The position numbers and the translations under genes are program-made. DNA of 63,963 nt, filler included, from Barthelona sp. PAP020 (taxonomy: Eukaryota): assembly GCA_040182905.1 (NCBI GenBank). It is 4 parts of 4 records of this genome, joined end to end, with 100 filler letters (N's around TTAATTAATTAA, not from the genome) between each part and the next. Parts side by side here need not be neighbours in the genome. Positions count along the whole stretch, not along the records: positions 1 to 18,170 come from JARQWU010000229.1; positions 18,271 to 36,338 come from JARQWU010000231.1; positions 36,439 to 54,487 come from JARQWU010000232.1; positions 54,588 to 63,963 come from JARQWU010000427.1. One strand, given 5' to 3'. Below are positions 1 through 56,752 of this stretch, in pieces. Each line of letters starts with the position of its first letter. Within the stretch, counting starts at the first letter, position 1. Under the pieces are notes generated by a model, which saw only the letters and a program-made list of their open reading frames with translations, searched no databases and had not been told where the DNA came from.

Positions 1-1014
1 ATCGAAAAATTGTTGGACCATGGTGCTGATGTCAATATATGTCCTGACAATAAGTTTAATCCATTATGTATTAGTTGCCAGTGTTGCCATTTTGATATCA
101 TTCATCTCTTATTAAGATATGGTGCTGATGTGAACGTATGTGATGCAAAAGGTATTTCTCCATTTTGTTGGTGTATTTCAAAACATTCAATCGATATGGC
201 AGCCTTTTTGTTGAAAAATTATGATATAGATCTCAATTTGGGAAAATCTCCCTTCTTTGTTTGTTGTCGAGAAAACAATCTTGATTTTGTCAAAACACTT
301 CTAGAAATGGGTGCAGATGTCAATTCATGCAACATTAATGGTGCTTCTTCATTGTATATTGCTTGCGAATTGGGGCATTTTGAAATTGTCAAATATCTTT
401 TGATTCATGGTGCTGATGTCAACTTGTGCTTCACAGGTTATTCTCCTTTGTACATCAGTGCCTATCATGGCCATCTTGATATCATCAAAATGTTGTTGGA
501 CCATGGTGCTGATGTTAATAAGCGTGGTTCTAAGAGGCATTCTCCATTTTCTATCAGTGCCTATCATGGCCATTTGGATATTGCTGTGATGCTTTTAAAT
601 CGACCAGAAATTAATGTTAATGGATTCGACATGTATATATTTTTCAACAGATATTATATGCCCTCTGATTTGTGGGATGCGCACAAAGAATCTGCTGAAA
701 AATTATACATTAACGTGGCAAATTTTGGAGAGCCATCAACCGAAGGAGATGTTGATGTGACATTTTATCACGTTTCTCAATCTCAAGTGATTGAATTAGT
801 CAAGAATCAAGGATATCTCATTTCAACACTTGTTTTAGTGAAGGCAAACAGTTCTTTAATACGACAATTTGTTAGTTCCGGCGTATATATGAATCAAATG
901 GACTTTGACTTAGCTATTAATACATGTTGGGATTTGGTCGACATCAATGAAAGGAATGGTGGTAATATGCATCAATACATTGATGAAAATGCTGATGAAA
1001 GTGATGATGATTAA
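1..1014 (+). CDS. Ankyrin-repeat protein with conserved unknown C-terminal module and acidic tail (5'-truncated)
   Basis: About 6 ANK repeats (SPLYISAYHGHLDIIKMLLDHGADVN). The frame is open from position 1. C-terminal IELVKNQGY...CWDLVDINERNGGNM is shared with the ORFs at 52292 and 55535. Confidence 0.9.
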   Translation: MEKLLDHGADVNICPDNKFNPLCISCQCCHFDIIHLLLRYGADVNVCDAKGISPFCWCISKHSIDMAAFLLKNYDIDLNLGKSPFFVCCRENNLDFVKTLLEMGADVNSCNINGASSLYIACELGHFEIVKYLLIHGADVNLCFTGYSPLYISAYHGHLDIIKMLLDHGADVNKRGSKRHSPFSISAYHGHLDIAVMLLNRPEINVNGFDMYIFFNRYYMPSDLWDAHKESAEKLYINVANFGEPSTEGDVDVTFYHVSQSQVIELVKNQGYLISTLVLVKANSSLIRQFVSSGVYMNQMDFDLAINTCWDLVDINERNGGNMHQYIDENADESDDD

Positions 1015-1393
1015 GTTTAACCGGTAAATTTTTGAGGAACACGTTTCTTTTTGGTTATTTATTATATTAAATTCTGAACAGTTTATATCCAATTCTTAGA
1101 TGTAGGGGTTGTGGCTGAGAAGTTGGCAGCTTGATCTTTCTTTCACACTGGCATATAAAAAAATATAATTCTGAAAAATGGACCAGTACTGCAACAAATA
1201 AACGATTATCAATCAAAAATTTTGAAAGTTTGGAGAAATTCTTCTTTCTAAACTGGCAAATATCCCTTCCACATTGATGGAGTTTTAGTGTAAACTATCG
1301 TCTTCTTTTCGTACGAGTTATAAAATACTTTTGAGTTGGACATGTTCAGATGTTCAGATATTGGAAATTTCGATGTTTCAACTCAAAAATCAG

Positions 1394-1795
1394 TAAAGAC
1401 CTTTATTATTATTGTTCTCGGTTAGAGTTTGGGGGTATTTGCAACCGAGTCGTTTTATGTGGATAGTTTAGAACATCTTAAAAACAAAAACAAAATACTT
1501 TATGCCTGGATGGGGCCAATATTTGAACAAAAATGTAACATACTTCTTCCTTCTTTCTAATAAATTTTTAGTTGTTCTTCTGTGGGTTTCCTTAATGAAA
1601 CCTTGTTATTCCTTCATAACCTATTGTATACACTTGTATTGTATCCTTCTAATTTTGAATTCGTATAATTCTGTGTTATTGCTCGAGTTTTTCAATTTTG
1701 ATACCCATCAATATCAGAAATTGCAACAAGAAACCTTAAAAATTTTTATACGGCTCTTTGCATGAAATCCGTCCGCTTTCCTACCAACATAAAGA
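1394..1795. repeat. Dispersed repeat family A copy (module 1 reversed at ~1394-1550, module 2 at ~1670-1795)
   Basis: ttgttctcggttagagtttgggggtatttgcaaccgagtcgtttt is the reverse complement of the 50750 and 58050 copies. ttttcaattttgatacccatcaatatcagaaattgcaa matches 39372 and 54994. Boundaries approximate. Confidence 0.85.
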
Positions 1796-2097
1796 AATTA
1801 TTCCATCTATTGATGATTCTATAAAAGAAACACTGTGGTCAACAACAGAAAATGATTTCCAAGACAAAGTAATTACAAAGTAACAAAGCTGAAAAGTAGT
1901 ACTTTCCAAAGACTAAACATTCTAAATCATGCTTTCGTTGGGAACTTTTTCTCATTCAACTAGAAAACTTTGTTGATAAGACAGATCAGTTAAACGTTTC
2001 TTTCAAAAAAGAAAAACCATAATTAACAAATCAAACAAATTTTATGTATGCCATAAAGAAAACCAACAAAAATAAAACAAAATGACTTCCTTTTTTA

Positions 2098-3906
2098 TTA
2101 CATGTCATTCGTGTTATCTTTCAATTGTTGAAACCAGGAGTACTTGGATAAAGGACTCATGTCAATCTTATTATTTTTGTTTTCTTCCAAATTCAAAGCT
2201 GCGGCAACTTTTTGTCTGAAAGAAGTGGTGTGCTCCATTGTTTCCTCTTCAAAACTGTCAAAGTCTTCCTTTTCAGTATTCCCTATTGTGAAATGAGCAT
2301 CAACATCAATTTGAAAAATGTCATTCATGGTTAATTGCGTGTCATTGTTGTTCCCATTTTGAGTTTTAAATTCTTTAGTCACAAAAGTATTGGCTGAAGG
2401 ATGTTTTGATACGTTTTTTCTACTTGCAACTGAATTATCATTCCTCACGTTAGCTTTCACATTTAAGTTACCATAGACATCTTCATTGATTGAGTTATGC
2501 TTGAATTTTGGTGAACTCTGTATTTTTCGTGAAACATTATTTATATTAGGGGTAAAAGAAAGCACAGCATACTCATCTTCTTGCTTTTGCATCCTCATAT
2601 TCTTTTTTTTTTGTTCTTGTTCTTTTGTCCAAACATTTTGCCGTTTATTAAAATCAGCCGAAGATCTCCCAAACCTATTTACAAGTATCTCTTGGGAATT
2701 TTTGTTTGTGTGACATTCATTGGCCTTTTTTTGTGCATTGGTCTCAATATCTTTTGATTTCTTCTCAATTTTTTTCTTTCGCTCCAAATCACGACGTTTC
2801 CCCAACTCATATAAATAATTAGAGCGTTCAATTGGTGTTTGAGGCATTCCCATTTGAATATCATATTGTCGACTATTTTGATCAATTCTAGGGGTTGTTT
2901 GACTGACTTGATTAAAATTAGCACTCATGTCAAAAAAATCGTTAATGGCCTTTTTTTTCAAATTCGGTGACTTCTTTTTAGACAATTCATACAACCTATC
3001 AGAAACACTTGTGTTGTTCAAATCTTTACCCAACAATTTTTCTGATTTGTACAATACTTTTGAACTTTCACTCAATTGCTTTGATCTTTCTTTTGCCAAC
3101 ATTTCTCTCTTTTTTTGTTTTTCAACTCTTCGTTTACCATCATTAAATAGTCTATCATAAGCCTCTTCTTTTTTGTATCCAATTTTTTTTTCGTTGACAG
3201 CAGTCACCCGATATGCAATATTTTCATCTGTAATATTTCTTTGAGATTTATTCAAGCCTCGCATGTACAATTCTTGGGAATGATTAATTGCCTTTTGTCT
3301 TCTCTCATTGTCAATTTCATCTTTGGTTTGTTGTTGATGAGATGCATCATTTGATTCCCATTTTGGTCGCTTGAACTTTTTCTCCGTTAATCTGTCAATA
3401 ACATCTTTGGAAATAGATCTTTCTGTCAATTTTCGAGAATGTTCATTTATTTGTGGTTGATGACATTTGCAAATTATTCTTTGTTCGTATTCCTCTTCCA
3501 TTCTTTTCTTTTCAGCCAAAGCTAATTGTCTTTGATTTTTCCAATATGTTACATCCATAATGGAATGTTTCTGAATATCTTTTGACATTGGATTTATTGT
3601 TGGCTGAAAAGGGTATGATTCTTGATTCGCTTCAACATCTCTTTTTAATTTCTCTAAATTTTGTTTTTTTGATTGAATAAATTGGTCTTGTCGCTTAAGA
3701 AAATTTTCATATGTTGGATTTGGACTTTCAGAAACAAATAATTCAGTATTGTTTGTATTTAATCTGTTAAATATTGTACTATCAAGCTTTTCAAAAGCTT
3801 CGTTTTCTGATAAAATGGAAGAAACTTCAGATGCACAATCAACACTAATTGATTCATCTTTCATGTTTTCAAACTTGCTATAATCATGTTTCTCAAATTC
3901 ATTCAT
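2098..3906 (-). CDS. Charged coiled-coil protein with repeated FxPxIN motifs (hypothetical, possibly cytoskeletal)
   Basis: 602-aa ORF with PFQPTIN, HQPQIN and SFTPNIN motifs plus DRLY/DRLF motifs; K/E/R-rich helices. Confidence 0.7.
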   Translation of the reverse strand: MNEFEKHDYSKFENMKDESISVDCASEVSSILSENEAFEKLDSTIFNRLNTNNTELFVSESPNPTYENFLKRQDQFIQSKKQNLEKLKRDVEANQESYPFQPTINPMSKDIQKHSIMDVTYWKNQRQLALAEKKRMEEEYEQRIICKCHQPQINEHSRKLTERSISKDVIDRLTEKKFKRPKWESNDASHQQQTKDEIDNERRQKAINHSQELYMRGLNKSQRNITDENIAYRVTAVNEKKIGYKKEEAYDRLFNDGKRRVEKQKKREMLAKERSKQLSESSKVLYKSEKLLGKDLNNTSVSDRLYELSKKKSPNLKKKAINDFFDMSANFNQVSQTTPRIDQNSRQYDIQMGMPQTPIERSNYLYELGKRRDLERKKKIEKKSKDIETNAQKKANECHTNKNSQEILVNRFGRSSADFNKRQNVWTKEQEQKKKNMRMQKQEDEYAVLSFTPNINNVSRKIQSSPKFKHNSINEDVYGNLNVKANVRNDNSVASRKNVSKHPSANTFVTKEFKTQNGNNNDTQLTMNDIFQIDVDAHFTIGNTEKEDFDSFEEETMEHTTSFRQKVAAALNLEENKNNKIDMSPLSKYSWFQQLKDNTNDM

Positions 3907-4227
3907 TAATTAACTCATTCAAAATTATTAGAACATAGTAAATGGGCAAAAAAGACTTTGATTTTCTTTCAAACTTTGTTGTTGCTTTTTACCCCTTAAA
4001 ATCATTTTTTTTACTGTCTATTTTTTATTCTTATGTTGCTTGTGTTATGAAAAATTGAAATAGAATAAATTCACAGCTGAAAATTTTTATTGTATGTTTC
4101 AGTTTACTTTGTTTGAATCATTCATTTCTAAGAAAATAAAATAATGACTCAAGTGAATTGTTTTAAATGATTTAAATGGGGAATCTTTAATTTTCAATTT
4201 ACAGATTTTTTTTGATTCTGCAATGCG

Positions 4228-7200
4228 ATGATAAAAGCATTTGCGATCAGTGGATTATTATCTTCTTTGAATACACATGCGTTTCATTATGGATCGAATA
4301 ATTTGATTGCTTATGGGGCACATTCTTTGTTGGCTGTTTTTGATCCAGTTACAGGATCATATTTAAAGGTATTTGATTATCATACAACGACTATTACTTT
4401 AGTTAGATGGGCACCACATGCACTAACAGAAAGATTAGAAGGTGAAAATTGTCCTTTTGTTTCAACGGCAAAGTCAAATTTTCCGCTATTAGCTTCATTG
4501 GATATACAAGGGAATTTATTTGTTTTTGACATTTGTACTGGAAATGTCACTTATAATTATTCAATGAGTACGAAGGAAAGACAACAAGTGGCTTTAGATA
4601 TATCCAATAAGATTGGTCAAAAAAGTAGTGAATATTTCGAACAAAAAAATTATTCTTTCATTTCTGCATTTGATTGGGTAACTTTTGGTGGTTCTACTTT
4701 TAGCAATTCATACATATTGACTATATGTGAATTCCCGGCCAAAATAATGCTTCATGATGTTGTTAACCATCAAATTTTATGGAATTGTTCGTTAGAAAAT
4801 GTACCCCAATGTTTGGTGACAGCTCCTTTACAACTTCAACCTTCATACCCCTTCTTTATCATAAGTAGAAATGGAGTTGTTAGTTCGTTGAGATTTAATG
4901 ATTTTGAACCACTTGTGGAAAAGAGTTTCACCCTTTCAAGTAAGGTGATACACCCGAAAGATCAATCTGAACTTGGAAAAGCAAAAGAGGCTCTATTAGG
5001 ACCCCAAGTCGATATTGTTGATGCTTGTTATTTAGATGCTTGTCCTTCTTTCATACTTTTTTTGGAGTCTCGTTGTTTATTTTTGGCTGATCCGTTGACT
5101 AAAACTAAATTTTGGGAAACTTCTTGTAGACTTGCTCCTTTTCAAAGGCTCATGATTCCCATGGGTGGAGGGTTACTTTTCGATTCTTTGCTACCAATTT
5201 CTCATGTTGATGGTATGGTTAGTTTTTGGCAATTTTCTTCTTTAAGTGAAGCACCAGTGTTATTGACGTCTTTTGATTCAAAACGTGCAAATGAAACAGG
5301 ACAATTTGGTGGGTGGAAACACAATCAAATGGTGTGCTTTGGTATATCCCCTTGGTGTGGTTTAAATTTGTCACCCCGTCTTGCAAATTGCTTTGCTCCA
5401 CGTATGGTTTCTATTTCGTTAAAAGGTCATGTTTCTGCTTGGAAAATTGATTCTGACATTTTACAATCAGATTTGCGTAATTGTCGTGGTCTTACACATT
5501 CTAGATGGTTGTATTCAACAGTTCAATTGGCAACAGTAATAGCTGTTCAACCTCTTCAATTTGGTAGTGATGATGGAACCCTTGCTGTCATTGGGAATCA
5601 ATCTGGTTTAGTTTTCATGATGAATCTACAAACCCGCCATTTGTTCAGAGCTTTTAAAGTGCATAATGGATCACCTGTTCGAGCTTTGGAATGGATTTCG
5701 CAAGATATAATCTTGAGTTTTTCATTTGTGGAAAATAATGATGGAAAGGTATTCAATGAGCTCATTCTATTAAATGTTCTGACTGGACAACAAGTGAATT
5801 TGCGAAAACGTGTTCGTAATTCACGTTTTTCAACTCTATCCGGTAATCCAAATCTTGGAGATGATTACAAATGTTCCATGATAGCTGTTTCGCCTGATCG
5901 TCGACTTTTAGCCGTTGTTGATTTTGCTCGTATTATTGAGATATGGGATATTGATGCTGTAGCAAATAACCCTGCATTTGATGGAGTAATCACCGTTGTG
6001 AAAGTTATTGTTCATCAACAAGATGTTACATCTGCATGTTGGGTTACTGGAGGAAATGTTGGGGGAATGGAAAACATTCTTTGCTTTTCAACTGTTGAAT
6101 CTACGATATGTAGGTACCGTTTTTTGTTGCAAGATGAATGGAATGTCGAAAGATTGGCCATTCAACCAATTACTCATGGTGTTTTCTTGATAAACTCGAT
6201 CGCTCAGATTACCGATTGTCTTTTAACTTTAGATATTGGTTTACGTGTTATAATCACCGATTTACACACCAATTCTACCCATAAACTTCAAATCAAAATA
6301 AATGAAGGTTCGACACGACCTGTTGGACGAATTATTCCCTCTCTCCTTGACCCCACTGTTTTTGCCATTTTAACATCTGATGGTACGGTGAGAGTAATTA
6401 GAATTTTACCTAAAGTTGAGCTCATACTTAACACCCCACCACATTGGCGTGCTGTATCGATAGATTGGGTAACTGGACGAGAGTTAGCTATTGTTTCAAA
6501 AGAAGGGTCTATTCGGGTTGTTTCTTTTGATGATGCTATTTTTACCGAACTAAAGAGTTCCAAACCTTTAGTTGTACCTCTAATGAAACGTAAAAGTATT
6601 TATTCTTTGCACATGTTAATAAAATGTGGTTTTGGTATTTTGAAAGAACCTCTCTCTACACAACCTAATAAGCTCAAATTCAGAGAAAGAAGTGTTTCTA
6701 ATTATTCTTCAAATCTATTTCCTTGGAAGTTTATGACATTGGCTGATGTTATTGGTGAGAATATTGTTTCTAATGATTGTTATGAAGATTTTAGGCATAT
6801 TTCAGCAGATCTATTGAGAAATACTCATGATATGAATCGATTTGAAAGAGAACTTTATTTTTTGATGTTAGTTGGTGATCTACCAAGAGTTTTATTGTTG
6901 TTATGTTTTGAACAAAGTATTTTATTATATTTGGATCAACAAACTTTAACAAAACAAAGGATAGATATAAAAAATGAATTATTTAAGGGTTCTGAAAGTT
7001 TGGAAAGTTTGGAAAGTTTTGAAGGTTTCAATGAAAATTTGTTAAATAGATTTTTAACACCTTTGAATAGACCACATATATCTGAAATATATGAAAAGAT
7101 TCCATTATTTGTTAAATATTTGATTGATCCGATATCATTGTTACATATTGAAGATGATGTAGCTAAATATCATTTGAATAGTGTGTTTGAATCAGCAGAT

Positions 7201-8253
7201 AATAAGGTTAGCACTGAAATTGTGGACTTAACCTTGACAAAATTGATATTGTCTGGGAATATTAAAAAGAGTCTTGATTTACTATGTTTGACTCCAATAA
7301 CAGCGAATAATTTTTTGTCCAATTGTTTCTTAGCAATTTTGATATGTAGTACTAGGATTTCTGATGAAGAGATTAAAAAAGAAAAAATTTTAAATGTTTG
7401 CAAACGAATGTTTTATGCAGCAAATGAAATGAATAAAAACTTGGAATCCCCTTCAAATAAATATCTTTTTGAAATAATTCAGATCCTAATTCTAACAGAT
7501 AATATGGATTTTGCCATACATTTCTTGATCAATGATAAAAATTGGAAATTAGCAAGTCAAATTGCTTTATTTGCTGATAAATATTACGAAAATCAAATTG
7601 TTGAATCTTTAAAAAAGTTAATCATTTCAAACGATACTTCTTCTACCACTGATTCTACTAATTCTATCAACGATATTAAAAATGAACATGAAATAATATC
7701 AACAACCACAACATCATCCTTATTTTCACCAAGTGATCAAGTTTTGTATGAAACAGTTGAAAGAAATAATTTTGAAATACTTACAGATTGCTTTGATATA
7801 GAGGAAAACGAATTTTTGTTGAAAGTTAAGGTCAATCAAGCAAAACATCTCTTAGATGCGGGAAACATATTTGGATCAATAGTTACACTTCTTGCAGCAA
7901 GAAAATTTGAAGCTATTGTTGTCTTACTAAAACAATATGGTCAAAGCTTGCTGGCCGAAACATTTTTGAGACGTTTAGTCCTTTTGGACATGGTTGATGA
8001 CGATACCATTTTCTGTTTACCTTGGAAATTGGATGATTCATTAACTTTTGAACAAATAAAGGAAGAATTACTCACAACTACAGCAGCTATTATACATCAT
8101 TCTGGAATAAGTGTGCTCTCCAAAATTTATTTAGAAGAAGTTGGTTTCACTGAAGATGATATCCCTCCTTCGATTATGGATCAGTTTAGTAAAGTGACTT
8201 TAGCAGAAGAATTAAAAAGAGCCATGTCTCCATCACCACTAAATCATGAATAA
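4228..8253 (+). CDS. WDR11: WDR11-like WD40 repeat protein
   Basis: 1341 aa. N-terminal LIAYGAHSLLAVFDP...ITLVRWAP...LLASLD resembles the WDR11 start; two propeller regions followed by a helical C-terminus. Confidence 0.7.
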   Translation: MIKAFAISGLLSSLNTHAFHYGSNNLIAYGAHSLLAVFDPVTGSYLKVFDYHTTTITLVRWAPHALTERLEGENCPFVSTAKSNFPLLASLDIQGNLFVFDICTGNVTYNYSMSTKERQQVALDISNKIGQKSSEYFEQKNYSFISAFDWVTFGGSTFSNSYILTICEFPAKIMLHDVVNHQILWNCSLENVPQCLVTAPLQLQPSYPFFIISRNGVVSSLRFNDFEPLVEKSFTLSSKVIHPKDQSELGKAKEALLGPQVDIVDACYLDACPSFILFLESRCLFLADPLTKTKFWETSCRLAPFQRLMIPMGGGLLFDSLLPISHVDGMVSFWQFSSLSEAPVLLTSFDSKRANETGQFGGWKHNQMVCFGISPWCGLNLSPRLANCFAPRMVSISLKGHVSAWKIDSDILQSDLRNCRGLTHSRWLYSTVQLATVIAVQPLQFGSDDGTLAVIGNQSGLVFMMNLQTRHLFRAFKVHNGSPVRALEWISQDIILSFSFVENNDGKVFNELILLNVLTGQQVNLRKRVRNSRFSTLSGNPNLGDDYKCSMIAVSPDRRLLAVVDFARIIEIWDIDAVANNPAFDGVITVVKVIVHQQDVTSACWVTGGNVGGMENILCFSTVESTICRYRFLLQDEWNVERLAIQPITHGVFLINSIAQITDCLLTLDIGLRVIITDLHTNSTHKLQIKINEGSTRPVGRIIPSLLDPTVFAILTSDGTVRVIRILPKVELILNTPPHWRAVSIDWVTGRELAIVSKEGSIRVVSFDDAIFTELKSSKPLVVPLMKRKSIYSLHMLIKCGFGILKEPLSTQPNKLKFRERSVSNYSSNLFPWKFMTLADVIGENIVSNDCYEDFRHISADLLRNTHDMNRFERELYFLMLVGDLPRVLLLLCFEQSILLYLDQQTLTKQRIDIKNELFKGSESLESLESFEGFNENLLNRFLTPLNRPHISEIYEKIPLFVKYLIDPISLLHIEDDVAKYHLNSVFESADNKVSTEIVDLTLTKLILSGNIKKSLDLLCLTPITANNFLSNCFLAILICSTRISDEEIKKEKILNVCKRMFYAANEMNKNLESPSNKYLFEIIQILILTDNMDFAIHFLINDKNWKLASQIALFADKYYENQIVESLKKLIISNDTSSTTDSTNSINDIKNEHEIISTTTTSSLFSPSDQVLYETVERNNFEILTDCFDIEENEFLLKVKVNQAKHLLDAGNIFGSIVTLLAARKFEAIVVLLKQYGQSLLAETFLRRLVLLDMVDDDTIFCLPWKLDDSLTFEQIKEELLTTTAAIIHHSGISVLSKIYLEEVGFTEDDIPPSIMDQFSKVTLAEELKRAMSPSPLNHE

Positions 8254-8694
8254 ATTGTGTATATTGTTTTTTCTCAAGGCTTTGTTGTCATGAATCTCTC
8301 ATTTTTAGAGTATTAAACAGAAAAATTGGTAAGGATTGGGGTTAACTTACCTTTTGTTTGTATTTTAACAAAGTAAAAATGGAAACTCAATATAAATTTT
8401 TTTTATGGGATCAAAAACTAATAAATAACGTGATGATAATGTAATAACCCTTTTACATTAAATAAGAAAAACAAATAGGGGAAAGAATTAGAATTCAACA
8501 AAGAAGTTTGCATTTTTCTTTCAACATATTCAGTTCATTTTCCCCAAAGTTTTTGTTAGATTTATACAATAAAATAGACACACAACATAAGAAAAAGGAA
8601 GGATTATTTAATGAGAAAAAAAGAAAGGCGACAGTTGATTCCAATTTTTTTTTAATTGATTTTTTGATTTCAATTTGATGAAAAATAAGGAAAT

Positions 8695-15110: not shown

Positions 15111-15199
15111 AATGATATAAAGAATATAAAAAAAATATATCGAATGGGGAATTTTTTTGGAGTTTTTTCATGTAATTAAATCATCCAATCAAATATTAC

Positions 15200-18731: not shown

Positions 18732-18898
18732 CTCAAAAAAAAAATATAGATGTTTAAATTTTTTTTTATTTCTATCGCTTTAATTCATCCGATAAATTTT
18801 CTTAATTTTACATTGCAAAACTTCAGATGTGTAAAAAGAGTCTTTTACAAAAAAAAATACTTATCCTTTTTTTACATAATTTTATCCAATCTTAACCA

Positions 18899-35933: not shown

Positions 35934-36338
35934 ACGGAAAAAATTGAGAAAAAATAAACTTACACTTTTTCTTCTGCCTTTTTTTTTCATTGCCAATTTA
36001 CCACCTTATTATTCCAACAATTAAAAATAAAATAAAAATATAAAGACTAAAGGAAAACAAATAAAAAAAACCCTGTTAAATTCTTGTAAATTTCCTTTTT
36101 TTTTTGTTTTTTTTTTTTGCATCTTACAATCAATTCATTTTACGAACGACCAAAAATTATATTACATTATCGCATAAAGAAAAGAATCTAAAAATATTTA
36201 TTTTGAGAAGAAATTTGTATTTTTTTTTTTTTGAAAAATGTCTGACCAAGAGGAAAACATTAAGAAATTTCAAATTAAAAGATTAATTCAATCTTTAAGA
36301 GGATACAGAGGGTATAATTTTTTTAATATTCATGATAT

Positions 36339-36438: not shown

Positions 36439-36439
36439 C

Positions 36440-38440
36440 GAAATTAATCGAAAGGCAGTGGATGTTTGGGCGTTTGCTGTGATGATGATTTATGTAATGA
36501 CAGGTATTCGTCCTTTTGAGGGCATTGATGATCGTAGAATGTTTAGAAATTTGGAAAATGGGAAATTGCCATATTCTGACGAGATGATTGATTCGGTTCC
36601 TGGTCATGGCATTGTAAAGTTGTGTTTGGATAAAGATCCTGCTAATCGTCCATCATTCGAGTTGATTACTGATTATCTAAAGATGCTTGTTGACACAATA
36701 CATAGTGTCATTGGCCCTTATGTTAAACATGATATGGATCAAGTTGTTGTTCCAAATGGGTTCTATGTGTATAGGGGTTTATCCGAGATTTATCAGGCCA
36801 CAATGTATGGTAACCTGAAAGTTGTCAAGCATTGTATCAAATCTGGTTTTTATGTGAACAAACAGGGTAAGGCAGGAAGGACATCGTTGTATGAGGCTGC
36901 TTTTTATGGGCGTATTAAGGTTGTTGAGTTTTTGTTGGATTTTAGGGCTGATGTTAGTTTGTGTACGAATGATGGGTGGTCTCCATTGTACATCAGTTGT
37001 CAAATGGGTCATCTTGATGTTGCCAAAATGCTCTTGGATTATGGCGCTGATGTTAATATATGCAAGAATGATGGGAGGTCTCCATTGTATGGCAGTTGTG
37101 AACATGCACATCTTGATGTCGCCGAAATGCTCTTGGATCATGGCGCTGATATTAATTTGTGTATGAATGATGGGTGGTCTCCATTGGTAATTAGTTGTCA
37201 CAATGGTGATTTTGATATTGCCAAAATGCTCTTGAATCATGGCGCTGATGTTAATTTGTGTGATAATTATGGCACTTCTTCATTGGTAATTAGTTGTCAC
37301 AATGGTGATTTTGATATTGCCAAAATGCTCTTGAATCATGGCGCTGATGTTAATTTGTGTGATAATGATGGCAGTTTTCCATTGACCATCAGTTGTGAAA
37401 ATGGTCATCTTGATGTTGCTAAAATGCTCTTGGATCATGAAGCTGATATTAATTTGTGTGATAATTATGGGTGGTCTCCATTGACCATCAGTTGTGAAAA
37501 TGGTCATCTTGATGTTGCTAAAATGCTCTTGGATCATGGCGCTGACGTTAATTTGTGTAATAATGATGGTAGTTTTCCATTGACCATCAGTTGTCAAAAT
37601 AGTCATCTTGATGTTGCTAAAATGCTCTTGGATCATGGGGCTGATATTAATTTGTGTGATAATTATGGCACTTCTTCATTGTTCATCAGTTGTCAAAATG
37701 GTTATCTTGATGTTGCCAAAATGCTCTTGGATCATGGCGCTGATATTAATTTGTGTAATAATAATGGTGTTTCTCCATTGTTCATCAGTTGTCAAGAAGG
37801 TCATCTTGATGTTGCCAAAATGCTCTTGGATCATGGCGCTGATGTCAAATTATGTATGAACAATGGTGAGTGGTCTCCATTGACCATCAGTTGTGAAAAT
37901 GGTCATCTTGATGTTGCTAAAATGCTCTTGGATCATGGCGCTGACGTTAATTTATGTAATAATGATGGGTGGTCTCCATTCACCATCAGTTGTGAAAATG
38001 GTCATCTTGAGGTTGCTAAAATGCTCTTGGATCATGGAGCTGATGTTAATTTGTGTGATAATAATGGTAGTTTTCCATTGTTCATCAGTTGTCAAGAAGG
38101 TCATCTTGATGTTGCCAAAATGCTCTTGGATCATAAAGCCAATGTCAAATTATGTATGAACAATGGTGAGTCGCCATTATTTGTTAGTTGCGAATTTGGT
38201 CATGTTAATATCGCTAAAATGCTCTTGGATCTTGGGGAGGACATTGATTTGTGTAGAGATGATGGCACTTCTCCATTGTTCATTAGTTGTCAAAATGGTC
38301 ATCTCAACATCGTCAAAATGCTCTTGGATCATGGCGTTGATGTTAACCTCAAAACTGATCAAGGATTGACCCCAATAGATATTGCTCGAACCAATGGTCA
38401 TACCCAAATTGTAGAGCTTCTGCAATCCTTCTACAATTGA
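36440..38440 (+). CDS. Protein kinase C-lobe (5'-truncated) fused to ~17 ankyrin repeats
   Basis: DVWAFAVMM...PFEG...CLDKDPANRPSF followed by 33-aa ANK units; frame open to the contig edge. Confidence 0.92.
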   Translation, partial: EINRKAVDVWAFAVMMIYVMTGIRPFEGIDDRRMFRNLENGKLPYSDEMIDSVPGHGIVKLCLDKDPANRPSFELITDYLKMLVDTIHSVIGPYVKHDMDQVVVPNGFYVYRGLSEIYQATMYGNLKVVKHCIKSGFYVNKQGKAGRTSLYEAAFYGRIKVVEFLLDFRADVSLCTNDGWSPLYISCQMGHLDVAKMLLDYGADVNICKNDGRSPLYGSCEHAHLDVAEMLLDHGADINLCMNDGWSPLVISCHNGDFDIAKMLLNHGADVNLCDNYGTSSLVISCHNGDFDIAKMLLNHGADVNLCDNDGSFPLTISCENGHLDVAKMLLDHEADINLCDNYGWSPLTISCENGHLDVAKMLLDHGADVNLCNNDGSFPLTISCQNSHLDVAKMLLDHGADINLCDNYGTSSLFISCQNGYLDVAKMLLDHGADINLCNNNGVSPLFISCQEGHLDVAKMLLDHGADVKLCMNNGEWSPLTISCENGHLDVAKMLLDHGADVNLCNNDGWSPFTISCENGHLEVAKMLLDHGADVNLCDNNGSFPLFISCQEGHLDVAKMLLDHKANVKLCMNNGESPLFVSCEFGHVNIAKMLLDLGEDIDLCRDDGTSPLFISCQNGHLNIVKMLLDHGVDVNLKTDQGLTPIDIARTNGHTQIVELLQSFYN

Positions 38441-45819: not shown

Positions 45820-46100
45820 CAAAAGTATATTATTTGCATAAATGCATGAATATCAACAAACAATTCCAACGAAAAAAAAATAAATCAAAATTCCCAACTT
45901 CCAACATATTTTATGAAAGCAATCAAATAAAATTTATCATTCATTTATTTATTTAAAATCTAAATTTAAAGAATTAAAGGAGATTATCTCAAAATTATCA
46001 AGTATCTTTCTCAAAACACATAAGTCTTCTTAATTGACACAAATATTCAGACAAACAATAAAAAATAAAAGAAAAACCACATATTTACAAAGATAAACCA

Positions 46101-46854: not shown

Positions 46855-46888
<34 letters not shown>

Positions 46889-47097: not shown

Positions 47098-49086
47098 TCA
47101 TGTTGAAATGATTTCAGCCAAAGTTTTCAAGTTTGTCACTAATTTTTGGGAAGCTAATTGATGTGCAAATAATTTCAATAAATTAACAAATATCTTCCCA
47201 AAACCTTTTAAAACTTTGAATTTTTTCTTGTCGTTTTCATAAATTCTCAAATGTCGAATCAAACATTCAACAGCAAAGGAAATATTCATATTTTCATTGA
47301 CAATAAAAGGAAAGAAATCAAGTTTGTCTTTATTAAACATTAACAACTTAACTACAGCATTGACAAATGAACTTTCCAACATTTCTTTTTGTTCTTCAGA
47401 AATTTGCTCAAAAACATGCTCTCGAATGAGGTCAAACATTTCAAAACGTTTGGATACATCATCAAACAGTAAAAGAAACGATTCTTGCAATTCTAAAACA
47501 ATTGAATGTTCATACACATCAAATTCACAATTAATTTCCACGATAAACAAATCGAATAAATTCATTGTAAAGCTGCCGGGAAACACACTTAGAATTTTCA
47601 ACTTCTCTAATAACGCCAAATCAATCTGATCAATAACCCGTTTGAAAACAACATTCAGCAAGTGTAAACCTTTGGCCAGAGAATCTTCGAAGACAGCAAG
47701 AATTTCATCTCCTTTCAGATTCTTTCGATGTTCAATGATTTGACCCATAATCTTAATTGCCTGTGGATATCCACCAGTTAAATTTGATAAATGAAGTGCT
47801 GAACTTTGTGAAATGCGAGTACAATGAGACAATGCCAATAATGCACCTGCATGCTTCGACAAAGGTTTGAGCCCAACAGATAAGAAATCAGCGTTATTTA
47901 CTGCAACTCCAACAGGACTGCGACTTGTGACAATGACTATTGCTCTACCATGTGTTGGTATTAACTGTTCAAGGATGTACGGATCTGAGCAGTTCTCAAC
48001 CAACATTAGTCTATGTGTCTCAAATAGGCGGTCATATAATTCGTCTATTGATTTCCCGGATGAGTTAAATAAAAGATCTTTTTCTTCACTTGTCTTTCCG
48101 TCTATTTTCAGTGCTAATATTCTACAAATTACTTTTTTTGCAGAAACGACATCTATATGGCCTGTCATTGCTTGCATGTCAACATAAACACTAATATAGT
48201 TCTCAGAAAGAGTTTCAACCAGTTTTGCAGCAAGACAACTCTTGCCAACACCTGCACTTCCCCAAATAACCACTACTTGTGAGCTGTTATAAGAGTTGAA
48301 CAAGAACTGCTCAATTTCTGCTAATTCACTATTTCGTCCATAAAAGCTATTCATAATCAAATCCTGATATCGATCTGTTGACCGAAAAACACGTTCATCT
48401 ATCAAATTTTGGTTCATCTTTTTAATTCCCCCATCTCTTCTAATGTAAGCAGATGAGTTATTGTTAAAATACAATGGTTGATTTCCTTTTTTTACAACAA
48501 CAGATAACATGTAATAATTGGGTATTATACCCTCATTTGCATCATATAAAGGAATGAACTTAACAGTATACAATTCTATATCAACTTTGGGTCGAAATAA
48601 ACCAATAATAGTGTTGATATTGACAGTCAATCTTTTAACATCATCTGTGGAGAAATTCATTCCAATGATTTCCCCATCGTCTTCCACTCCAATCCACAAC
48701 TTTCCTCCATCTGTGTTTAAAAATGCACACACATATTGAGCAACATATTTGTTCAAACAATTAATAAAATTTTCATCTTGAACAATCACCTTGAACTCAT
48801 TATGCTTTTCTTCTTCAATAATTATCCGATTATGTTTTATATACATTCCTAAAGTATCCATCGATATGTCTAAACTATCGTCAGAGATTATCTCAATGTC
48901 ATTTTCATCAATAATTTCCTCGTTTAGCTCATCAACATTAAGAATAGATGCATTTGAGCTTGAAAAACTACGGACCCCCAATAAAACATCTAAACGAGTA
49001 TTCGAAGATGTTATAAAACTTTCTTCATCTTGAAAATTTGTATTTAACATCGTTTCATTCAATAAATATTGTTTTTCAAAATACAT
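47098..49086 (-). CDS. Schlafen/AlbA_2 nuclease domain + STAND (NB-ARC-like) NTPase + winged helix
   Basis: EEKHNEFK, YVCAFLNTDGGKLWIGVEDDG and YIRRDG; FYGRNSE, GSAGVGKS, LMLVEN, IVTSR, GGYPQAI, LSVFPGSF, MFDLIR. Confidence 0.9.
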   Translation of the reverse strand: MYFEKQYLLNETMLNTNFQDEESFITSSNTRLDVLLGVRSFSSSNASILNVDELNEEIIDENDIEIISDDSLDISMDTLGMYIKHNRIIIEEEKHNEFKVIVQDENFINCLNKYVAQYVCAFLNTDGGKLWIGVEDDGEIIGMNFSTDDVKRLTVNINTIIGLFRPKVDIELYTVKFIPLYDANEGIIPNYYMLSVVVKKGNQPLYFNNNSSAYIRRDGGIKKMNQNLIDERVFRSTDRYQDLIMNSFYGRNSELAEIEQFLFNSYNSSQVVVIWGSAGVGKSCLAAKLVETLSENYISVYVDMQAMTGHIDVVSAKKVICRILALKIDGKTSEEKDLLFNSSGKSIDELYDRLFETHRLMLVENCSDPYILEQLIPTHGRAIVIVTSRSPVGVAVNNADFLSVGLKPLSKHAGALLALSHCTRISQSSALHLSNLTGGYPQAIKIMGQIIEHRKNLKGDEILAVFEDSLAKGLHLLNVVFKRVIDQIDLALLEKLKILSVFPGSFTMNLFDLFIVEINCEFDVYEHSIVLELQESFLLLFDDVSKRFEMFDLIREHVFEQISEEQKEMLESSFVNAVVKLLMFNKDKLDFFPFIVNENMNISFAVECLIRHLRIYENDKKKFKVLKGFGKIFVNLLKLFAHQLASQKLVTNLKTLAEIIST

Positions 49087-50835: not shown

Positions 50836-50863
50836 AAACAACTGTTGAAATTCAATTGCTAAA

Positions 50864-50872: not shown

Positions 50873-50899
50873 TTCAACCTGTTTAAAATCATTTTAAAA

Positions 50900-52291: not shown

Positions 52292-54487
52292 CTAATCATC
52301 ATTGTCATCACTGTTATCACTATCATCATCTTCTATCTCTTCATCAATATGCTGACGCATATTGCCACCATTCCTTTCATTGATGTCAATCAAATCCCAA
52401 CATAAGTTGATTGACATATCAAAATCTCTTTGATTCATGTAAACTCCAGCACTGACAAATTCTCGGATGATGACACTGTCTACCTTCATTGCAACAAGTG
52501 TTGATAAAAGATAGCCCTCATTCTTTACCAATTCAATCAACTCGGATTTGGACAAATGTTCAAATTTCAAATCAACAGGCTCGCCACTCTTCAATTTTTG
52601 TTTTAAATTGGGACAGCTCAAAATGCTGTATTTGTTCTTTTTCCATTGTTCATCACTTGTATACAATCTGTTGAAAAATAGCAGCATATCTTCACCATAT
52701 AGGTTTATTTCGGGACAATCTAGAAGCATCTTGGCAATATCAAGATAACCATAATAACAACTGACATACAATGGAGAATATCCCCCGTGCCTACACAAAT
52801 TAACATCAGCTCCATAATCCAAGAGCATTCTGGCAACATCAAGGTGACCATTTTGACAACTGACGTACAATGGAGAACTACCATCATTAGGAAACAAATT
52901 AACATCAGCGCCATGATCCAAGAGCATTTTGGCAACATCAAGATGACCATTTTGACAACTAATGTACAATGGAGAAGTGCCATTGTTTTTACACAAATTA
53001 AAATCAGCGTCATGATCCAAAAGCATTTTGGCAACATCAAGATGACCATTTTGACAACTAATGTACAATGGAGAAGTGCCATTGTTTTTACACAAATTAA
53101 AATCAGCGTCATGATCCAAGAGCATTTTGGCAACATCAAGATGACCATTTTGACAACTGACGTACAATGGAGAACTACCATCATTTGGAAACAAATTAAC
53201 ATCAGCGTCATGATCCAAGAGCATTTTGGCAACATCAAGATGACCTTGTTCACAACTGATGTACAATGAAGAAGCACCATTATTCTTACACAAATTAACA
53301 TCAGCGCCATGATCCAAAACCATTCTGGCAATATCAAGATGGCCATTTTGACAACTAATGTACAATGGAGAAGCACCGTCATTCATACACAAATTAACAT
53401 CAGCGCCATGATCCAAAACCATTCTAGCAACATCAAGATGACCATTTTGACAACTGATGTACAATGAACAAGCACCATTATTCTTACACAAATTAACATC
53501 AGCGCCATGATCCAAAACCATTCTGGCAACATTAAGATGGCCATTTTGACAACTAATGTACAATGAAGAAGCACCATTATTATTGCACAAATTAATATCA
53601 GCTCCATGATCTAAGAGCATTCTGGCAACATCAAAATGACCTTCTTTACAACTGACATACAATGGAGAAAATCCACCATCCCTACACAAATTAACATCAG
53701 CCCCATGATCCAAGAGCATTTCGGCAACATCAAGATGACCATTTTGACAACTGATGCACAATGGAGAAAATCCACCATCCCTACACAAATTTACATCTGC
53801 TCCATGATCCAAGAGCATTTTGGCGACATCAAAATGACCTTGTTGACAACTGATGTACAATGGAGAAGCACCATCATTCTTACACGAATTAACATCAGCG
53901 CCATGATTCAAAAGCATTCTGGCAACATCAAGATGGCCTTTTTGACAACTGATGTACAATGGAGAAAAACCATCATTATCACACAAATTAACATCAGCTC
54001 TATGATCCAAGAGCATTTTGGCGACATCAAGATGATCTTGATGACAACTGATGTACAATGGAGAAACACCATCGTTTACACACAAATTAACATCAGCTCC
54101 ATGATCCAAGAGCATTCTGGCAACATCAAGATGACCATTATAACAACTGATGTATAATGGAGAAGCATTATCATACATACTCAAATGAACATCAGCGCCA
54201 AAATCCAACAAAAACTCAACAACTTCTAATTGCCCATAAAAAGCAGCTCCAAACAATGTTGTTCTTCCTTCCTTACCCTGTTTGTTCACATCAACGCCAG
54301 CTTTGATACACTGCTTGATAAGCTCAAGATTACCATAAAAAGCTGCATAATATATCTTCTTTGGACGACCATTATCTTCAAATCCATCCACATCGAACCC
54401 ATCTGGAACAACAACTTGATCCATATTATACTTAACATAAGGATCAGTTTCCTCAACTGCAGTGTTAACAATCATTGTCGGCAAAAA
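52292..54487 (-). CDS. ~17 ankyrin repeats + conserved unknown C-terminal module (probably 5'-truncated; kinase may lie upstream)
   Basis: Near-identical 99-bp ANK units. PYVKYNMDQVVVPDGF linker is shared with the kinase-ANK gene; tail is shared with the ORFs at 1 and 55535. Confidence 0.92.
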   Translation of the reverse strand, partial: FLPTMIVNTAVEETDPYVKYNMDQVVVPDGFDVDGFEDNGRPKKIYYAAFYGNLELIKQCIKAGVDVNKQGKEGRTTLFGAAFYGQLEVVEFLLDFGADVHLSMYDNASPLYISCYNGHLDVARMLLDHGADVNLCVNDGVSPLYISCHQDHLDVAKMLLDHRADVNLCDNDGFSPLYISCQKGHLDVARMLLNHGADVNSCKNDGASPLYISCQQGHFDVAKMLLDHGADVNLCRDGGFSPLCISCQNGHLDVAEMLLDHGADVNLCRDGGFSPLYVSCKEGHFDVARMLLDHGADINLCNNNGASSLYISCQNGHLNVARMVLDHGADVNLCKNNGACSLYISCQNGHLDVARMVLDHGADVNLCMNDGASPLYISCQNGHLDIARMVLDHGADVNLCKNNGASSLYISCEQGHLDVAKMLLDHDADVNLFPNDGSSPLYVSCQNGHLDVAKMLLDHDADFNLCKNNGTSPLYISCQNGHLDVAKMLLDHDADFNLCKNNGTSPLYISCQNGHLDVAKMLLDHGADVNLFPNDGSSPLYVSCQNGHLDVARMLLDYGADVNLCRHGGYSPLYVSCYYGYLDIAKMLLDCPEINLYGEDMLLFFNRLYTSDEQWKKNKYSILSCPNLKQKLKSGEPVDLKFEHLSKSELIELVKNEGYLLSTLVAMKVDSVIIREFVSAGVYMNQRDFDMSINLCWDLIDINERNGGNMRQHIDEEIEDDDSDNSDDNDD

Positions 54488-54587: not shown

Positions 54588-54887
54588 TAATGTAAAGGAA
54601 TCTGGTTTATTTTATTAACTAACGAATCAAATAATCCTGAGTACCAGCATCTCGGAATTTAAGGAATAACAAAAGGGGAAAAGTTCCCTCGGAAAAATAA
54701 AACTCACGATTGCTAAGAGGTGCGGTCCTTTAGAAAACAAAATTCTTATTGTTTTGATCTCCTCTTTTTCAGTTTTAGAATTTTCATTCTTTTGGGATTA
54801 CTAGCTTTAGATGCAGGAGTATCTTGGGTTAGTTCTTCCTTTGCGTCCTCTTTCGGTCAAATTTTTGTTGTTGCCTGATTAATTGAT

Positions 54888-55098
54888 AACAAATGCTTAT
54901 AAAGACCTTTATTGTTCGCGGTCAGAGTTTGGGGTACTTGCAACTGTATCCTTTGTATCATGAATCATTTGATTCTTTGCTGTCATTTCACTTTCAATTT
55001 TGATATCTATTAATATCAGAAATTGCAAAAAAAAACTTTAAACACATTTGTATTATCTTTCACGTGAAATTTGTTGGCTTTGCTACGAACACAAAATA
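54888..55098. repeat. Dispersed repeat family A copy
   Basis: aaatgcttataaagacctttattgttcgcggtcagagtttggggtacttgcaact, then module 2 ending ctttgctacgaacacaaa. Confidence 0.85.
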
Positions 55099-55534
55099 AC
55101 TCTTTGACAAAGAATGTAACTGACAACCAGAAGGATCTAAATGCAAAATAAACGTGTTGTAAATGTAAAAAACAATATTCTACTTTATTTTAAACAATTT
55201 TTTTCAAAGAATTGGTGTTCTTTCTACTTGTATTATGTGATTTCGTAGCTTTAGTACCCATTAAAATGTAAAGTTAAAAACAAACAATTGAAAGTGTATG
55301 TGGTGTCTTTGTATGAAATTCATTTCTAGCCGTACACGCATCTTTTCTTCTATCGTCTTCAAATGGTTTCTTTTTTCAATTTTTTTCGAAAATTTGCCAA
55401 AAAAAAAAAGAAAAATCCTCTTTAATTTTCATAAATATTAATGAAAGAAGTGATATTTTCTTTTTTTGCTGAACACTGGATTTTAAAAAATTAAATATGC
55501 GGTTTCCTACAATTCACACAATAAAAATCTCCAC

Positions 55535-56752
55535 TCAAGCATCCTCTTCATCACCATCACTGTCACTGTCAGAAATATGTTCTCCCATAAATTCAAATAG
55601 GTTACCTCCATTTGTATTGTTTAAGTCAACCAAATCCCAGCATTTATCAACCACTATGCTGCATTCTTCCTTGTTTATGTGGATTCCAGCTGCTACCAAT
55701 TGTCTAATAGTTTGGGTATCCATGTTCAGACCAGCTACAAGATTCAATAACACATAGCCACCATTCTTTGACAATTCAATGAGTTCGGACTGATGTGAAG
55801 GATCATACAAATGCATAATTGAATAAATTTTTACTGTATTATCGGTGCATCTTCCACATACGAATTGTTTCTTATCTGGAGACAGAGTGCTGGAGAAGAA
55901 ACAATCGTCACAACCACAAAACACCTTTTGAATCTCCTGAAAACTATCAACATTGTATAGAGTAATGAAGCCATCACCAGACATAATAAGTAGAATATTT
56001 GAAGTAAGAAAATGAAGAGACCATACTTCACCATCCATATAAAATGTGTGAATAAGTGATCCGTCATCCATGTTCCAAAGTTTGACTTTCTCTGATACAT
56101 CGCCAACAGCAATAATTTGTTGAGTTGGGTGGAAATCAACAGCATGCCCAACTCCATCTTGGTCAAATGAACGAATAACCGAGAAATTTTCACAGTCAAC
56201 TAATTTAGCAGTGTAATCTTGACTAGTAGTCAACAAATAATTTCCATTAAATGAAAGTTTAAATCTCCAAACAATATCTGAGTGAATTTTTGATTCACAA
56301 ACAACTATTCCTTTCTTTATGTCCCATTTTTTTAAATTCATACCGCTATTAAAATAAAGATAACAACAACAACGAGAAAAACAGACTGTCTGAGTATCAA
56401 TATTATTTTGAATGATGGTTAAAATTGAAAAGTTTTGAAGACTGTAGAGAACAATAGAAATTGGACAAGCGACAGCTAGCATTTTTCCATCATGAGAAAA
56501 GGAAATGTCTGAATTATCATATTCCTGAAAAGGTTCCAAAATTGTTTTTAATTTTCGGATTTCCATATCAACTATAAATAGTTTATCATAAACACAAAGA
56601 ACCAAATATTTACTATCAATAGAATATTTACAACAATACAGATCCTCTGAAATAACTCCTCGAATTTCTTTCACATTATCTTCATTTATTTTTAAAGGAA
56701 ATAAATCACCAATATTTTTTGCTATCGATTTTTCATTTGATTCAACAGACAT
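55535..56752 (-). CDS. WD40 propeller + the same conserved C-terminal module as the ankyrin proteins
   Basis: WD40 blades (LKKWD, VKLWN); C-terminal SELIELSKNGGY...CWDLVDLNNTNGGNL plus acidic tail. Confidence 0.9.
   Translation of the reverse strand: MSVESNEKSIAKNIGDLFPLKINEDNVKEIRGVISEDLYCCKYSIDSKYLVLCVYDKLFIVDMEIRKLKTILEPFQEYDNSDISFSHDGKMLAVACPISIVLYSLQNFSILTIIQNNIDTQTVCFSRCCCYLYFNSGMNLKKWDIKKGIVVCESKIHSDIVWRFKLSFNGNYLLTTSQDYTAKLVDCENFSVIRSFDQDGVGHAVDFHPTQQIIAVGDVSEKVKLWNMDDGSLIHTFYMDGEVWSLHFLTSNILLIMSGDGFITLYNVDSFQEIQKVFCGCDDCFFSSTLSPDKKQFVCGRCTDNTVKIYSIMHLYDPSHQSELIELSKNGGYVLLNLVAGLNMDTQTIRQLVAAGIHINKEECSIVVDKCWDLVDLNNTNGGNLFEFMGEHISDSDSDGDEEDA

What the first reader, a model, noticed from the sequence alone, without database searches (positions are those of the whole stretch)
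775..55790. Unrecognised ~70-aa C-terminal module grafted onto both ankyrin arrays and a WD40 propeller
Seen: three ORFs on three different contigs (module at ~775-1014 +, ~52292-52547 -, ~55535-55790 -) end in the same sequence: S[EQ][LV]IEL[VS]KNxGY..LV...IRx[FL]VxxG[VI]x[MI]N...CWDL[VI]D[IL]NxxNGGN[ML], then a D/E/S-rich tail. Two carry ANK repeats and one carries WD40. Established: one short C-terminal box on either ANK or WD40 is the layout of SOCS-box substrate receptors (ASB/WSB) and resembles poxvirus ANK-PRANC. I see no canonical SOCS, F-box or PRANC consensus here. Inference: a lineage-specific adaptor module linking variable recognition domains to a common partner such as a cullin ligase or signalling hub.
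Basis: partly seen in the sequence, partly recalled or inferred. Interest (0 to 1): 0.85.

Follow-up and report, generated by a model that had tools for sequence, protein, structure and literature searches.

The report
Unnamed docking box on protist proteins
More than fifty proteins of an anaerobic single-celled eukaryote carry different, variable binding domains but end in the same small unnamed domain, which likely plugs them all into one shared partner, most likely a protein-destroying ubiquitin ligase.

Summary
Confirmed. Three ORFs (two ankyrin, one WD40) end in one ~70-aa module plus an acidic tail (pairwise E 1e-16 to 1e-33). It is under purifying selection (dN/dS about 0.12).

Searches found it in 60 further proteins, all EukProt; 18 of 18 checked are labelled Barthelona sp. 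PAP020. With the window's three they form 53-57 clusters. It is always single and 7-30 residues from the C-terminus, on WD40, ankyrin, ARM-like and long unannotated proteins.

Its core (CWDLxDxNExNGGNM) is 70% identical between paralogues, the propellers 37%, and the propellers' predicted top-face binding positions are hypervariable. A 66%-identical ankyrin sibling in the window lacks it, so it is not a needed repeat cap. AlphaFold gives five helices (pLDDT 82).

No significant Pfam, NCBIfam or PDB-sequence match; the BC-box, cullin-box, F-box and DWD motif tests fail. Weak UBA, bromodomain and ankyrin echoes stay below threshold.

Best reading (inferred, 0.42): a lineage-specific substrate-receptor box docking on a shared ubiquitin ligase. 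A shared docking partner of some kind is about 0.75 likely. The partner, and whether Barthelona has cullins, are untested. The scan has not met this sequence elsewhere, but has noted analogous orphan boxes in other genomes.

The parts
775..1014 (+). Module copy A with acidic tail and stop; conserved core IR...NGGNM about 859-981
   Evidence: ORF A is 94% identical to EukProt protein P0001
1..621 (+). Ankyrin array of ORF A (5' end cut by the window edge), followed by a ~50-aa linker
   Evidence: Pfam Ank E 5.6e-39; linker
52292..52552 (-). Module copy B with acidic tail and stop; core about 52346-52468
52690..54352 (-). Ankyrin array of ORF B (17 Pfam Ank stretches; 15 copies of a 99-bp unit at 86% matches); 5' end cut by the spacer
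55535..55792 (-). Module copy C with acidic tail and stop; core about 55586-55708
55820..56644 (-). WD40 propeller of ORF C (405 aa, ATG at 56752), about seven blades; closest database paralogue 52% identical
36439..38440 (+). Control gene: kinase C-lobe plus ankyrin array, 66% identical to ORF B over 586 aa. It ends in an ordinary last ankyrin repeat with no module

Best explanation
The module is a small helical domain at the end of more than fifty WD40, ankyrin, ARM-like and other proteins of a Barthelona-type metamonad, and it likely acts as the constant docking box of a library of substrate receptors for one shared ubiquitin ligase. Shown: the family, its C-terminal position, the invariant core, the variable propeller top face, and presence or absence on sister ankyrin genes. 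Predicted: a five-helix fold whose long fourth helix and NGGN turn carry the invariant residues (R35, G41, W57, L59, N63, G68, N69). Inferred: the variable repeat domain binds a client; the invariant box and acidic tail bind one scaffold or adaptor (a divergent cullin-adaptor pair or another E3); the client is ubiquitinated. The family grew mainly by whole-gene duplication of a WD40-box gene, with occasional grafts of the box onto other folds. About 0.75 that it docks on one shared partner; about 0.42 that the partner is a ubiquitin ligase.
For: 63 sequences carry the module, as 53-57 clusters at 70-90% identity; always one copy, 7-30 residues from the end, tail 44% D, 16% S, 11% E. In 43 full-length WD40 members mean identity is 0.70 in the CWDL...F box, 0.56 in the core and 0.37 in the propeller. 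Module identity exceeds propeller identity in 775 of 820 pairs. The 21 predicted top-face positions R1, R1-2 and D-1 (defined in PMC3419727, abstract and passages) average 3.20 bits against 1.98 for the other 255 columns and 2.24 for polar columns; 0 of 10,000 random sets were as variable. A conserved box with a variable substrate-binding domain is the pattern reported for nematode F-box families (PMC8120010, passages). A C-terminal helical box after a propeller or ankyrin array is the layout of KLHDC10, WSB1 and the ASBs (PMC10591846, PMC3355856, passages). Trypanosomes have lineage-specific cullins that use Kelch and LRR adaptors without F-box or BTB (PMC12816148, passages). The module's first helix reads LxxL[CSA][KR] in 34 of 63, the L and C/S/A spacing of a BC box.
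Against: The strict BC box matches 1 of 63, at another site (2.9 expected from shuffles). Cul2 box 3 of 63 (3.0 expected), Cul5 LPxP 0, F-box LPxE 0, WDxR in 2 of 48 WD40 proteins. The BC-like helix is the less conserved half (identity 0.37), has Val at the Cys position in the ankyrin clade, and is missing or degenerate in P0042, P0043, P0057 and P0061. Giardia, in the sister lineage, has no Skp1 or Cullin1 (PMC7029713). A constant box with a variable surface fits any shared-partner system, not only ligases. Surface loops are variable in many families, the top-face anchors were placed by eye, and positive selection was not tested.
Confidence: 0.42

Rival explanations
1. The box is a signalling adaptor (working like a death or TIR domain, without being one) that would couple variable WD40 or ankyrin sensors to a shared kinase or effector, possibly in defence against viruses or bacteria.
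For: The window holds related kinases joined to ankyrin (36439-38440) and to WD40 (26505-28880), 45% identical over 83 aa. ORF B shares the post-kinase linker with the kinase-ankyrin gene, so B is probably kinase-ankyrin-module. The ankyrin arrays of B and its sibling are internally 82-86% alike in DNA, as in recombining sensor arrays (recalled comparison with fungal NLRs). A Schlafen AlbA_2 plus NB-ARC-like gene lies at 47098-49086.
Against: Most members (45 of 63) are a bare 400-aa propeller plus box with no signalling domain. No member matches a death, CARD or TIR family in Pfam. No NTPase-fused member was found among the 63.
Confidence: 0.22
2. The box is a shared targeting handle that would bring many propellers to one place or machine (cytoskeleton, chromatin, chaperone, membrane coat), with no role in ubiquitin transfer; the acidic tail would bind a basic surface.
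For: Strict C-terminal position and a D/S/E-rich tail; invariant polar surface residues; no ligase-box motif.
Against: Such handles rarely sit on a 50-member family with hypervariable top faces (inference). The tail is very short or absent in P0028, P0048 and P0054.
Confidence: 0.16
3. The module is a diverged UBA-like domain that would bind ubiquitin, making the proteins shuttles or readers of ubiquitinated cargo.
For: Pfam UBA_BIRC2-3 is the most recurrent weak hit: 6 of 53 members, best E 0.001, residues 19-60 on profile positions 8-49 of 53. Predicted helices 19-27, 31-39 and 46 onward have UBA-like spacing (UBA layout recalled).
Against: All six score below the cut-off (best 19.5 bits against 27.2). 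The would-be MGF loop is among the least conserved columns ([MLA]G[FYW] in 2 of 63, 4.0 expected). The invariant CWDL...NGGN box lies at and beyond the end of the match.
Confidence: 0.1
4. The module is only a structural cap or remnant (a decayed ankyrin repeat, or the A-B-C helices of a bromodomain) with no shared partner.
For: The first half aligns weakly with an ankyrin-1 repeat (E 0.84). Weak structural rows include ankyrin proteins (2aja Z 3.4, rmsd 4.1, 74 aligned; FEM1B Z 3.1, rmsd 3.1, 68 aligned). The three-sequence profile hits the BAZ2B bromodomain at E 0.21 over 48 positions, with the invariant Asn on the Asn of the B-C loop (role of that Asn recalled).
Against: The same module ends beta-propellers, ankyrin arrays and an ARM-like protein. 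It lies 66-69 aa after the last ankyrin helix, and a 66%-identical sibling does without it. Profile-profile comparison with 17 window ankyrin repeats gives E 0.45, 1 column. The bromodomain hit is gone with 11 and 53 sequences. Invariant polar residues across 53 paralogues argue for a binding surface.
Confidence: 0.1

Closest known systems
SOCS-box receptors WSB1/2 (WD40) and ASB (ankyrin) of Cul5-Elongin BC ligases
   Same: One short C-terminal helical box on either WD40 or ankyrin repeats; the first helix has L and C/S/A four residues apart.
   Different: No strict BC box, no LPxP Cul5 box, no Pfam SOCS_box hit in 53 members. The box is about 70 aa, not about 40 (length recalled), and its conserved part is the C-terminal CWDL...NGGN, followed by an acidic tail.
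VHL-box receptors KLHDC2/3/10 and FEM1 of Cul2 ligases
   Same: Propeller or ankyrin domain followed by a C-terminal helical box (KLHDC10: three helices, PMC10591846 passages).
   Different: Cul2 box no more frequent than in shuffles; proline in only 3 of 63 cores; five predicted helices.
Poxvirus ANK-PRANC and F-box proteins (Skp1-Cul1)
   Same: Expanded family with a constant box and variable repeat domains; C-terminal position as in PRANC (recalled).
   Different: No LPxE start, no Pfam F-box or PRANC hit; mostly on WD40; cellular genes of one protist lineage.
Trypanosome lineage-specific cullin adaptors (TbCul-E Kelch, TbCul-G LRR; PMC12816148)
   Same: Precedent for a protist lineage using repeat-domain adaptors that lack F-box, BTB or DCAF signatures.
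   Different: Those were isolated with cullins; here no partner is known. No sequence relationship was tested or seen.
UBA domain of BIRC2/3 (Pfam PF21290)
   Same: Sub-threshold match over 42 residues in 6 of 53 members.
   Different: MGF loop not conserved; extra first helix, long fourth helix and invariant NGGN turn.

Membership tests
SOCS box / VHL box (Elongin BC) | BC box (S,T,P)LXXX(C,S,A)XXX-hydrophobic (PMC3355856) | tested here: not met
   1 of 63, not at the shared helix; 2.9 expected from shuffles. Only the L and C/S/A positions fit (34 of 63 as LxxL[CSA][KR])
SOCS box | Cul5 box LP-hydrophobic-P | tested here: not met
   0 of 63
VHL box | Cul2 box hydrophobic-P-X-X-hydrophobic-X-X-X-hydrophobic, 8-23 aa after the BC box | tested here: not met
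   3 of 63 at scattered sites, 3.0 expected
SOCS box / VHL box | C-terminal position after a repeat recognition domain | tested here: met
   63 of 63 within 7-30 residues of the end; one of these (P0051) is a 59-aa fragment with no N-terminal domain
SOCS box / VHL box | Binds Elongin B/C and a cullin | not testable with these tools
F-box / PRANC | LPxE start (recalled) and Pfam F-box or PRANC profile match | tested here: not met
   LPxE 0 of 63; no such family among 53 members scanned, but the filters drop most hits above E 0.1
F-box / PRANC | Binds Skp1 | not testable with these tools
   No Skp1 of the organism available
DCAF / DWD (DDB1-Cul4) | WDxR motif in the propeller (recalled) | tested here: not met
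   2 of 48 WD40 members; the H-box helix was not tested
UBA domain | Profile score above the Pfam cut-off and conserved MGF loop | tested here: not met
   Best 19.5 bits against 27.2; loop in 2 of 63
UBA, bromodomain, SOCS/F-box, death fold, EF-hand | Same three-dimensional fold | tested here: inconclusive
   Two models (pTM 0.66, 0.68); best VIA-align Z 3.9 (rmsd 2.9-4.0, 65-71 aligned), tied among unrelated helical proteins
Bromodomain | Profile match and full four-helix length of about 110 aa (recalled) | tested here: inconclusive
   E 0.21-0.9 to BAZ2B only, with the 3-sequence profile or copy B; absent with 11 and 53 sequences; the module is about 70 aa
Ankyrin repeat | TPLH motif (recalled) and Pfam Ank match in the module | tested here: not met
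   No Ank family in 53 members; hhalign E 0.45; one E 0.84 PDB hit
EF-hand | 12-residue loop with ligands at 1, 3, 5, 9, 12 (pattern recalled) | tested here: not met
   0 of 63; DxN lies inside the predicted helix

The most novel reading that the evidence does not exclude
Barthelona invented a new kind of ubiquitin-ligase receptor box, unrelated to F-box, SOCS/VHL, BTB or DCAF, that docks on a novel or heavily rebuilt scaffold and serves more than fifty WD40, ankyrin and ARM receptors. It would stand in for the SCF system that Giardia, in the sister fornicate lineage, has lost.
Probability: 0.2. Interest if true: 0.82.

Novelty: new variant of a known kind. Interest (0 to 1): 0.56.

Why it matters
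Known substrate-receptor boxes belong to a few ancient families. A box confined to one deep-branching metamonad, on a library of more than fifty genes with hypervariable binding faces, would show a new adaptor arising and being grafted onto several folds within one lineage. Because the core is nearly invariant, one pull-down or one proteome-wide co-folding screen should name the partner. That would test how metamonads with reduced cell-cycle ligases control protein turnover or defence. If the partner is not a ligase, it is still an undescribed domain that annotates dozens of otherwise anonymous WD40 and ankyrin genes.

Tried and rejected
Whole genome: none is held for this window, so the copy number in the assembly and the presence of cullins, Skp1, Elongin or DDB1 were not examined.

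Fold searches: Foldseek against PDB and BFVD gave nothing at E <= 0.001. VIA-align over 48,161 chains gave no Z >= 5 for either model (best 3.9), and the second looks gave best Z 3.1 and 2.3. No UBA, bromodomain, SOCS/F-box, death-fold or EF-hand domain was recognisable among the listed rows. This excludes none of them and does not show a new fold.

Homodimer prediction: no verdict (score 0.00, alignment not used, partner fold uncertain).

ESM Atlas: no usable hit for copy B; only scores of 0.76 to hypothetical proteins for P0007 313-391. This shows neither novelty nor absence.

Contigs: viral contigs gave 0 loci. Metagenome contigs gave 3 loci matching only 18 residues at E 4e-4 within the candidates; I took them as chance and did not examine them. 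Prokaryotic genome contigs were not scanned.

Sequencing runs: none was listed.

Family libraries: NCBIfam gave only single-member weak hits. Single-sequence PDB searches gave only E > 0.2. P0059 is a repetitive protein without the module and was dropped; P0047 is the PEPCK look-up.

Number of grafts: the module tree (55 rows; 8 near-duplicates or fragments left out; 71 columns) is mostly unresolved. Holding all 9 non-WD40 rows together is not rejected (p-AU 0.172).

Literature: 'Barthelona' gave 24 papers, 19 listed, none on this by title or abstract start. PMC11316075 main text has 0 hits for ankyrin, WD40, ubiquitin or cullin, and none in the five readable supplements; one image PDF and one oversized PDF were not seen and may bear on gene-family content. 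Skoliomonas + ankyrin gave 0 papers; metamonad + WD40 + ankyrin + gene family expansion gave 0. The supplements of PMC12816148 do not name Barthelona or the other metamonads asked for. Earlier scan findings by sequence and by place: nothing.
Full report
Observation. The window is four AT-rich pieces with long unbroken ORFs, joined by spacers. ORF A (1-1014 +, ankyrin), ORF B (52292-54487 -, ankyrin) and ORF C (55535-56752 -, WD40) lie on three different pieces and end in the same ~70-aa module plus an acidic tail. Pairwise tblastn E-values are 7e-33, 5e-18 and 4e-16, and no fourth copy exists in the window. Between A and B the module has dN 0.166 and dS 1.36, and synonymous sites are saturated against C. 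It is an old protein domain under purifying selection, not repeated DNA.

Family. Three word-indexed searches and one exhaustive phmmer search of 1.84 billion representatives returned, with cluster members and one control look-up, 62 proteins. Sixty carry the module; P0059 is a repetitive false hit and P0047 the PEPCK control. All 60 are EukProt records with Trinity names, so they come from transcript assemblies. All 18 whose accession was shown are labelled Barthelona sp. PAP020. ORF A is 94% identical to P0001, and the window's PEPCK is in EukProt letter for letter, so the window is from this organism or a very close relative. Barthelona is a metamonad sister to Fornicata (PMC13087550, abstract start in the listing). 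With the 53-sequence profile, all 33 hits down to E 10 were again EukProt Trinity records, among 7,991 scored candidates. That search is word-limited, and I do not know whether other barthelonid proteomes are in the collection, so 'lineage-restricted' means within these databases. ORFs B and C have no database match closer than 53%, so the true family is probably larger than the 53-57 clusters counted.

Anatomy. The 63 sequences are: 45 WD40 proteins of mostly ~400 aa, plus a WD40 fragment and two divergent ones; 8 ankyrin proteins of the A/B clade; one distant ankyrin protein with a kinase-like N-terminus by eye (P0042); one ARM-like protein (P0052, Pfam Arm E 0.0013, below cut-off); four ~900-1000-aa proteins with no Pfam family above cut-off (P0041, P0046, P0043, P0057); and a 59-aa fragment. 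The module is always single and ends 7-30 residues before the C-terminus. Invariant in 53 aligned members are R35, G41, W57, L59, N63, G68 and N69; C56, D58 and G67 are nearly so. Two AlphaFold models from different first sequences agree on five helices (about 3-14, 19-27, 31-39, 46-65, 71-77; pLDDT 79 and 82, pTM 0.66 and 0.68), most confident over residues 31-70.

Not a cap. In the ankyrin clade the module starts 66-69 residues after the last ankyrin helix. The kinase-ankyrin gene at 36439-38440 is 66% identical to B over 586 aa yet ends without it. WD40, ankyrin and ARM are unrelated folds, so at least two grafts must have occurred. The A/B ankyrin modules form one clade (100/99), but the tree cannot count the grafts. 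Among WD40 members module and propeller distances correlate (Mantel rho 0.53, p 0.001, 41 proteins), so the family grew mostly by whole-gene duplication. One pair (P0026/P0029) has 97% module but 49% propeller identity; this is either a recent swap or an assembly chimera.

Constant box, variable face. In 43 full-length WD40 members mean identity is 0.37 in the propeller, 0.37 in the module's first two helices, 0.56 in its core and 0.70 in the CWDL...F box. The 21 positions that PMC3419727 (abstract, outline, passages) names as top-face hotspots average 3.20 bits of entropy against 1.98 elsewhere and 2.24 for polar columns, and many are aromatic (anchors placed by eye on P0007). This is the pattern of a receptor library: different clients on one face, one common partner on the box. 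The same contrast is reported for nematode F-box families (PMC8120010, passages). Positive selection itself was not tested.

Known domains. No member passes a Pfam cut-off (53 scanned), NCBIfam gives only single weak hits, and PDB sequence searches give E > 0.2. With consensus definitions from PMC3355856 (passages), the strict BC box, Cul2 box and Cul5 box occur no more often than in shuffles; recalled F-box, WDxR and EF-hand patterns fail too. Three weak echoes remain. UBA_BIRC2-3 hits 6 of 53 members (best E 0.001), but the MGF loop is unconserved. The BAZ2B bromodomain is hit only with shallow queries. The first half has an ankyrin-like look (E 0.84; hhalign E 0.45). The fold searches were inconclusive and are given under Tried and rejected.

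Mechanism. I commit to a substrate-receptor box for a shared ubiquitin ligase at 0.42, within about 0.75 for some shared docking partner. In favour are the layout (WSB, ASB, KLHDC10), the conservation contrast, a BC-like first helix in 34 of 63, and the precedent of lineage-specific cullin adaptors without known boxes in trypanosomes (PMC12816148, passages). Carpediemonas has a BTB-Kelch fusion read as a likely Cullin 3 adaptor (10.1101/2021.03.14.435266, passages). Against are the failed motif tests, the weak conservation of the BC-like helix, and the lack of Skp1 and Cullin1 in Giardia (PMC7029713, passages). The main rival is a signalling adaptor that links sensors to kinases: related kinases sit on ankyrin and WD40 arrays in this window, and the ankyrin arrays are internally 82-86% alike. 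No partner was identified here.

Novelty. The architecture is a known kind; the domain has no name in the libraries searched, and the literature searches listed under Tried and rejected found no description. Earlier notes of this scan describe analogous orphan tail boxes in giant viruses, a bacterium and a probable jakobid, but nothing by sequence or place. They are unchecked, and suggest only that the layout recurs. Verdict: a real, undescribed, lineage-restricted docking domain; new variant of a known kind; interest 0.56.

Noticed in passing
window 47098-49086 (-): Schlafen AlbA_2 domain (E 1.5e-17) joined to an NB-ARC/STAND-like NTPase (E 8.6e-7): an NLR-like nuclease-NTPase in a metamonad.
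   Followed up: no
window 26505-28880 (-), 36439-38440 (+), 15176-17824 (+): Related kinase or pseudokinase domains carry different C-terminal parts (WD40, ankyrin array, other); a second modular family, and ORF B probably belongs to it.
   Followed up: partly
window 33063-36005 (-): PAZ-Piwi Argonaute-family protein with a G/P/Y- and RG-rich N-terminal extension.
   Followed up: no
window 30555-31303: 321-bp unit repeated 2.3 times at 99% identity inside a kinesin-like ORF (label by eye; 29329-32856 -); a very recent duplication or an assembly artefact.
   Followed up: no
window 36947-38346 and 52725-54208: Ankyrin arrays of 14-15 copies of a 99-bp unit at 82-86% matches, suggesting repeat homogenisation.
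   Followed up: partly
window 39928-45852 (-), 8689-11886 (+), 12141-14627 (+), 2098-3909 (-): Large ORFs with no Pfam hit at E 0.001; the 1974-aa one looks like a single-pass surface protein by eye.
   Followed up: no
database proteins P0041/P0046, P0043, P0057: 900-1000-aa module carriers that look like double beta-propellers by eye; P0043 and P0057 share an N-terminal helical stretch (34% over 119 aa) that is not the module.
   Followed up: partly
window 4216-8253 (+), 60542-63625 (+), 21609-23489 (-), 18896-21319 (+): Housekeeping neighbours: WDR11-like propeller, gamma-tubulin complex component, PEPCK and an Spb1-like methyltransferase (the last two labelled by eye); no functional clustering with the module genes.
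   Followed up: no
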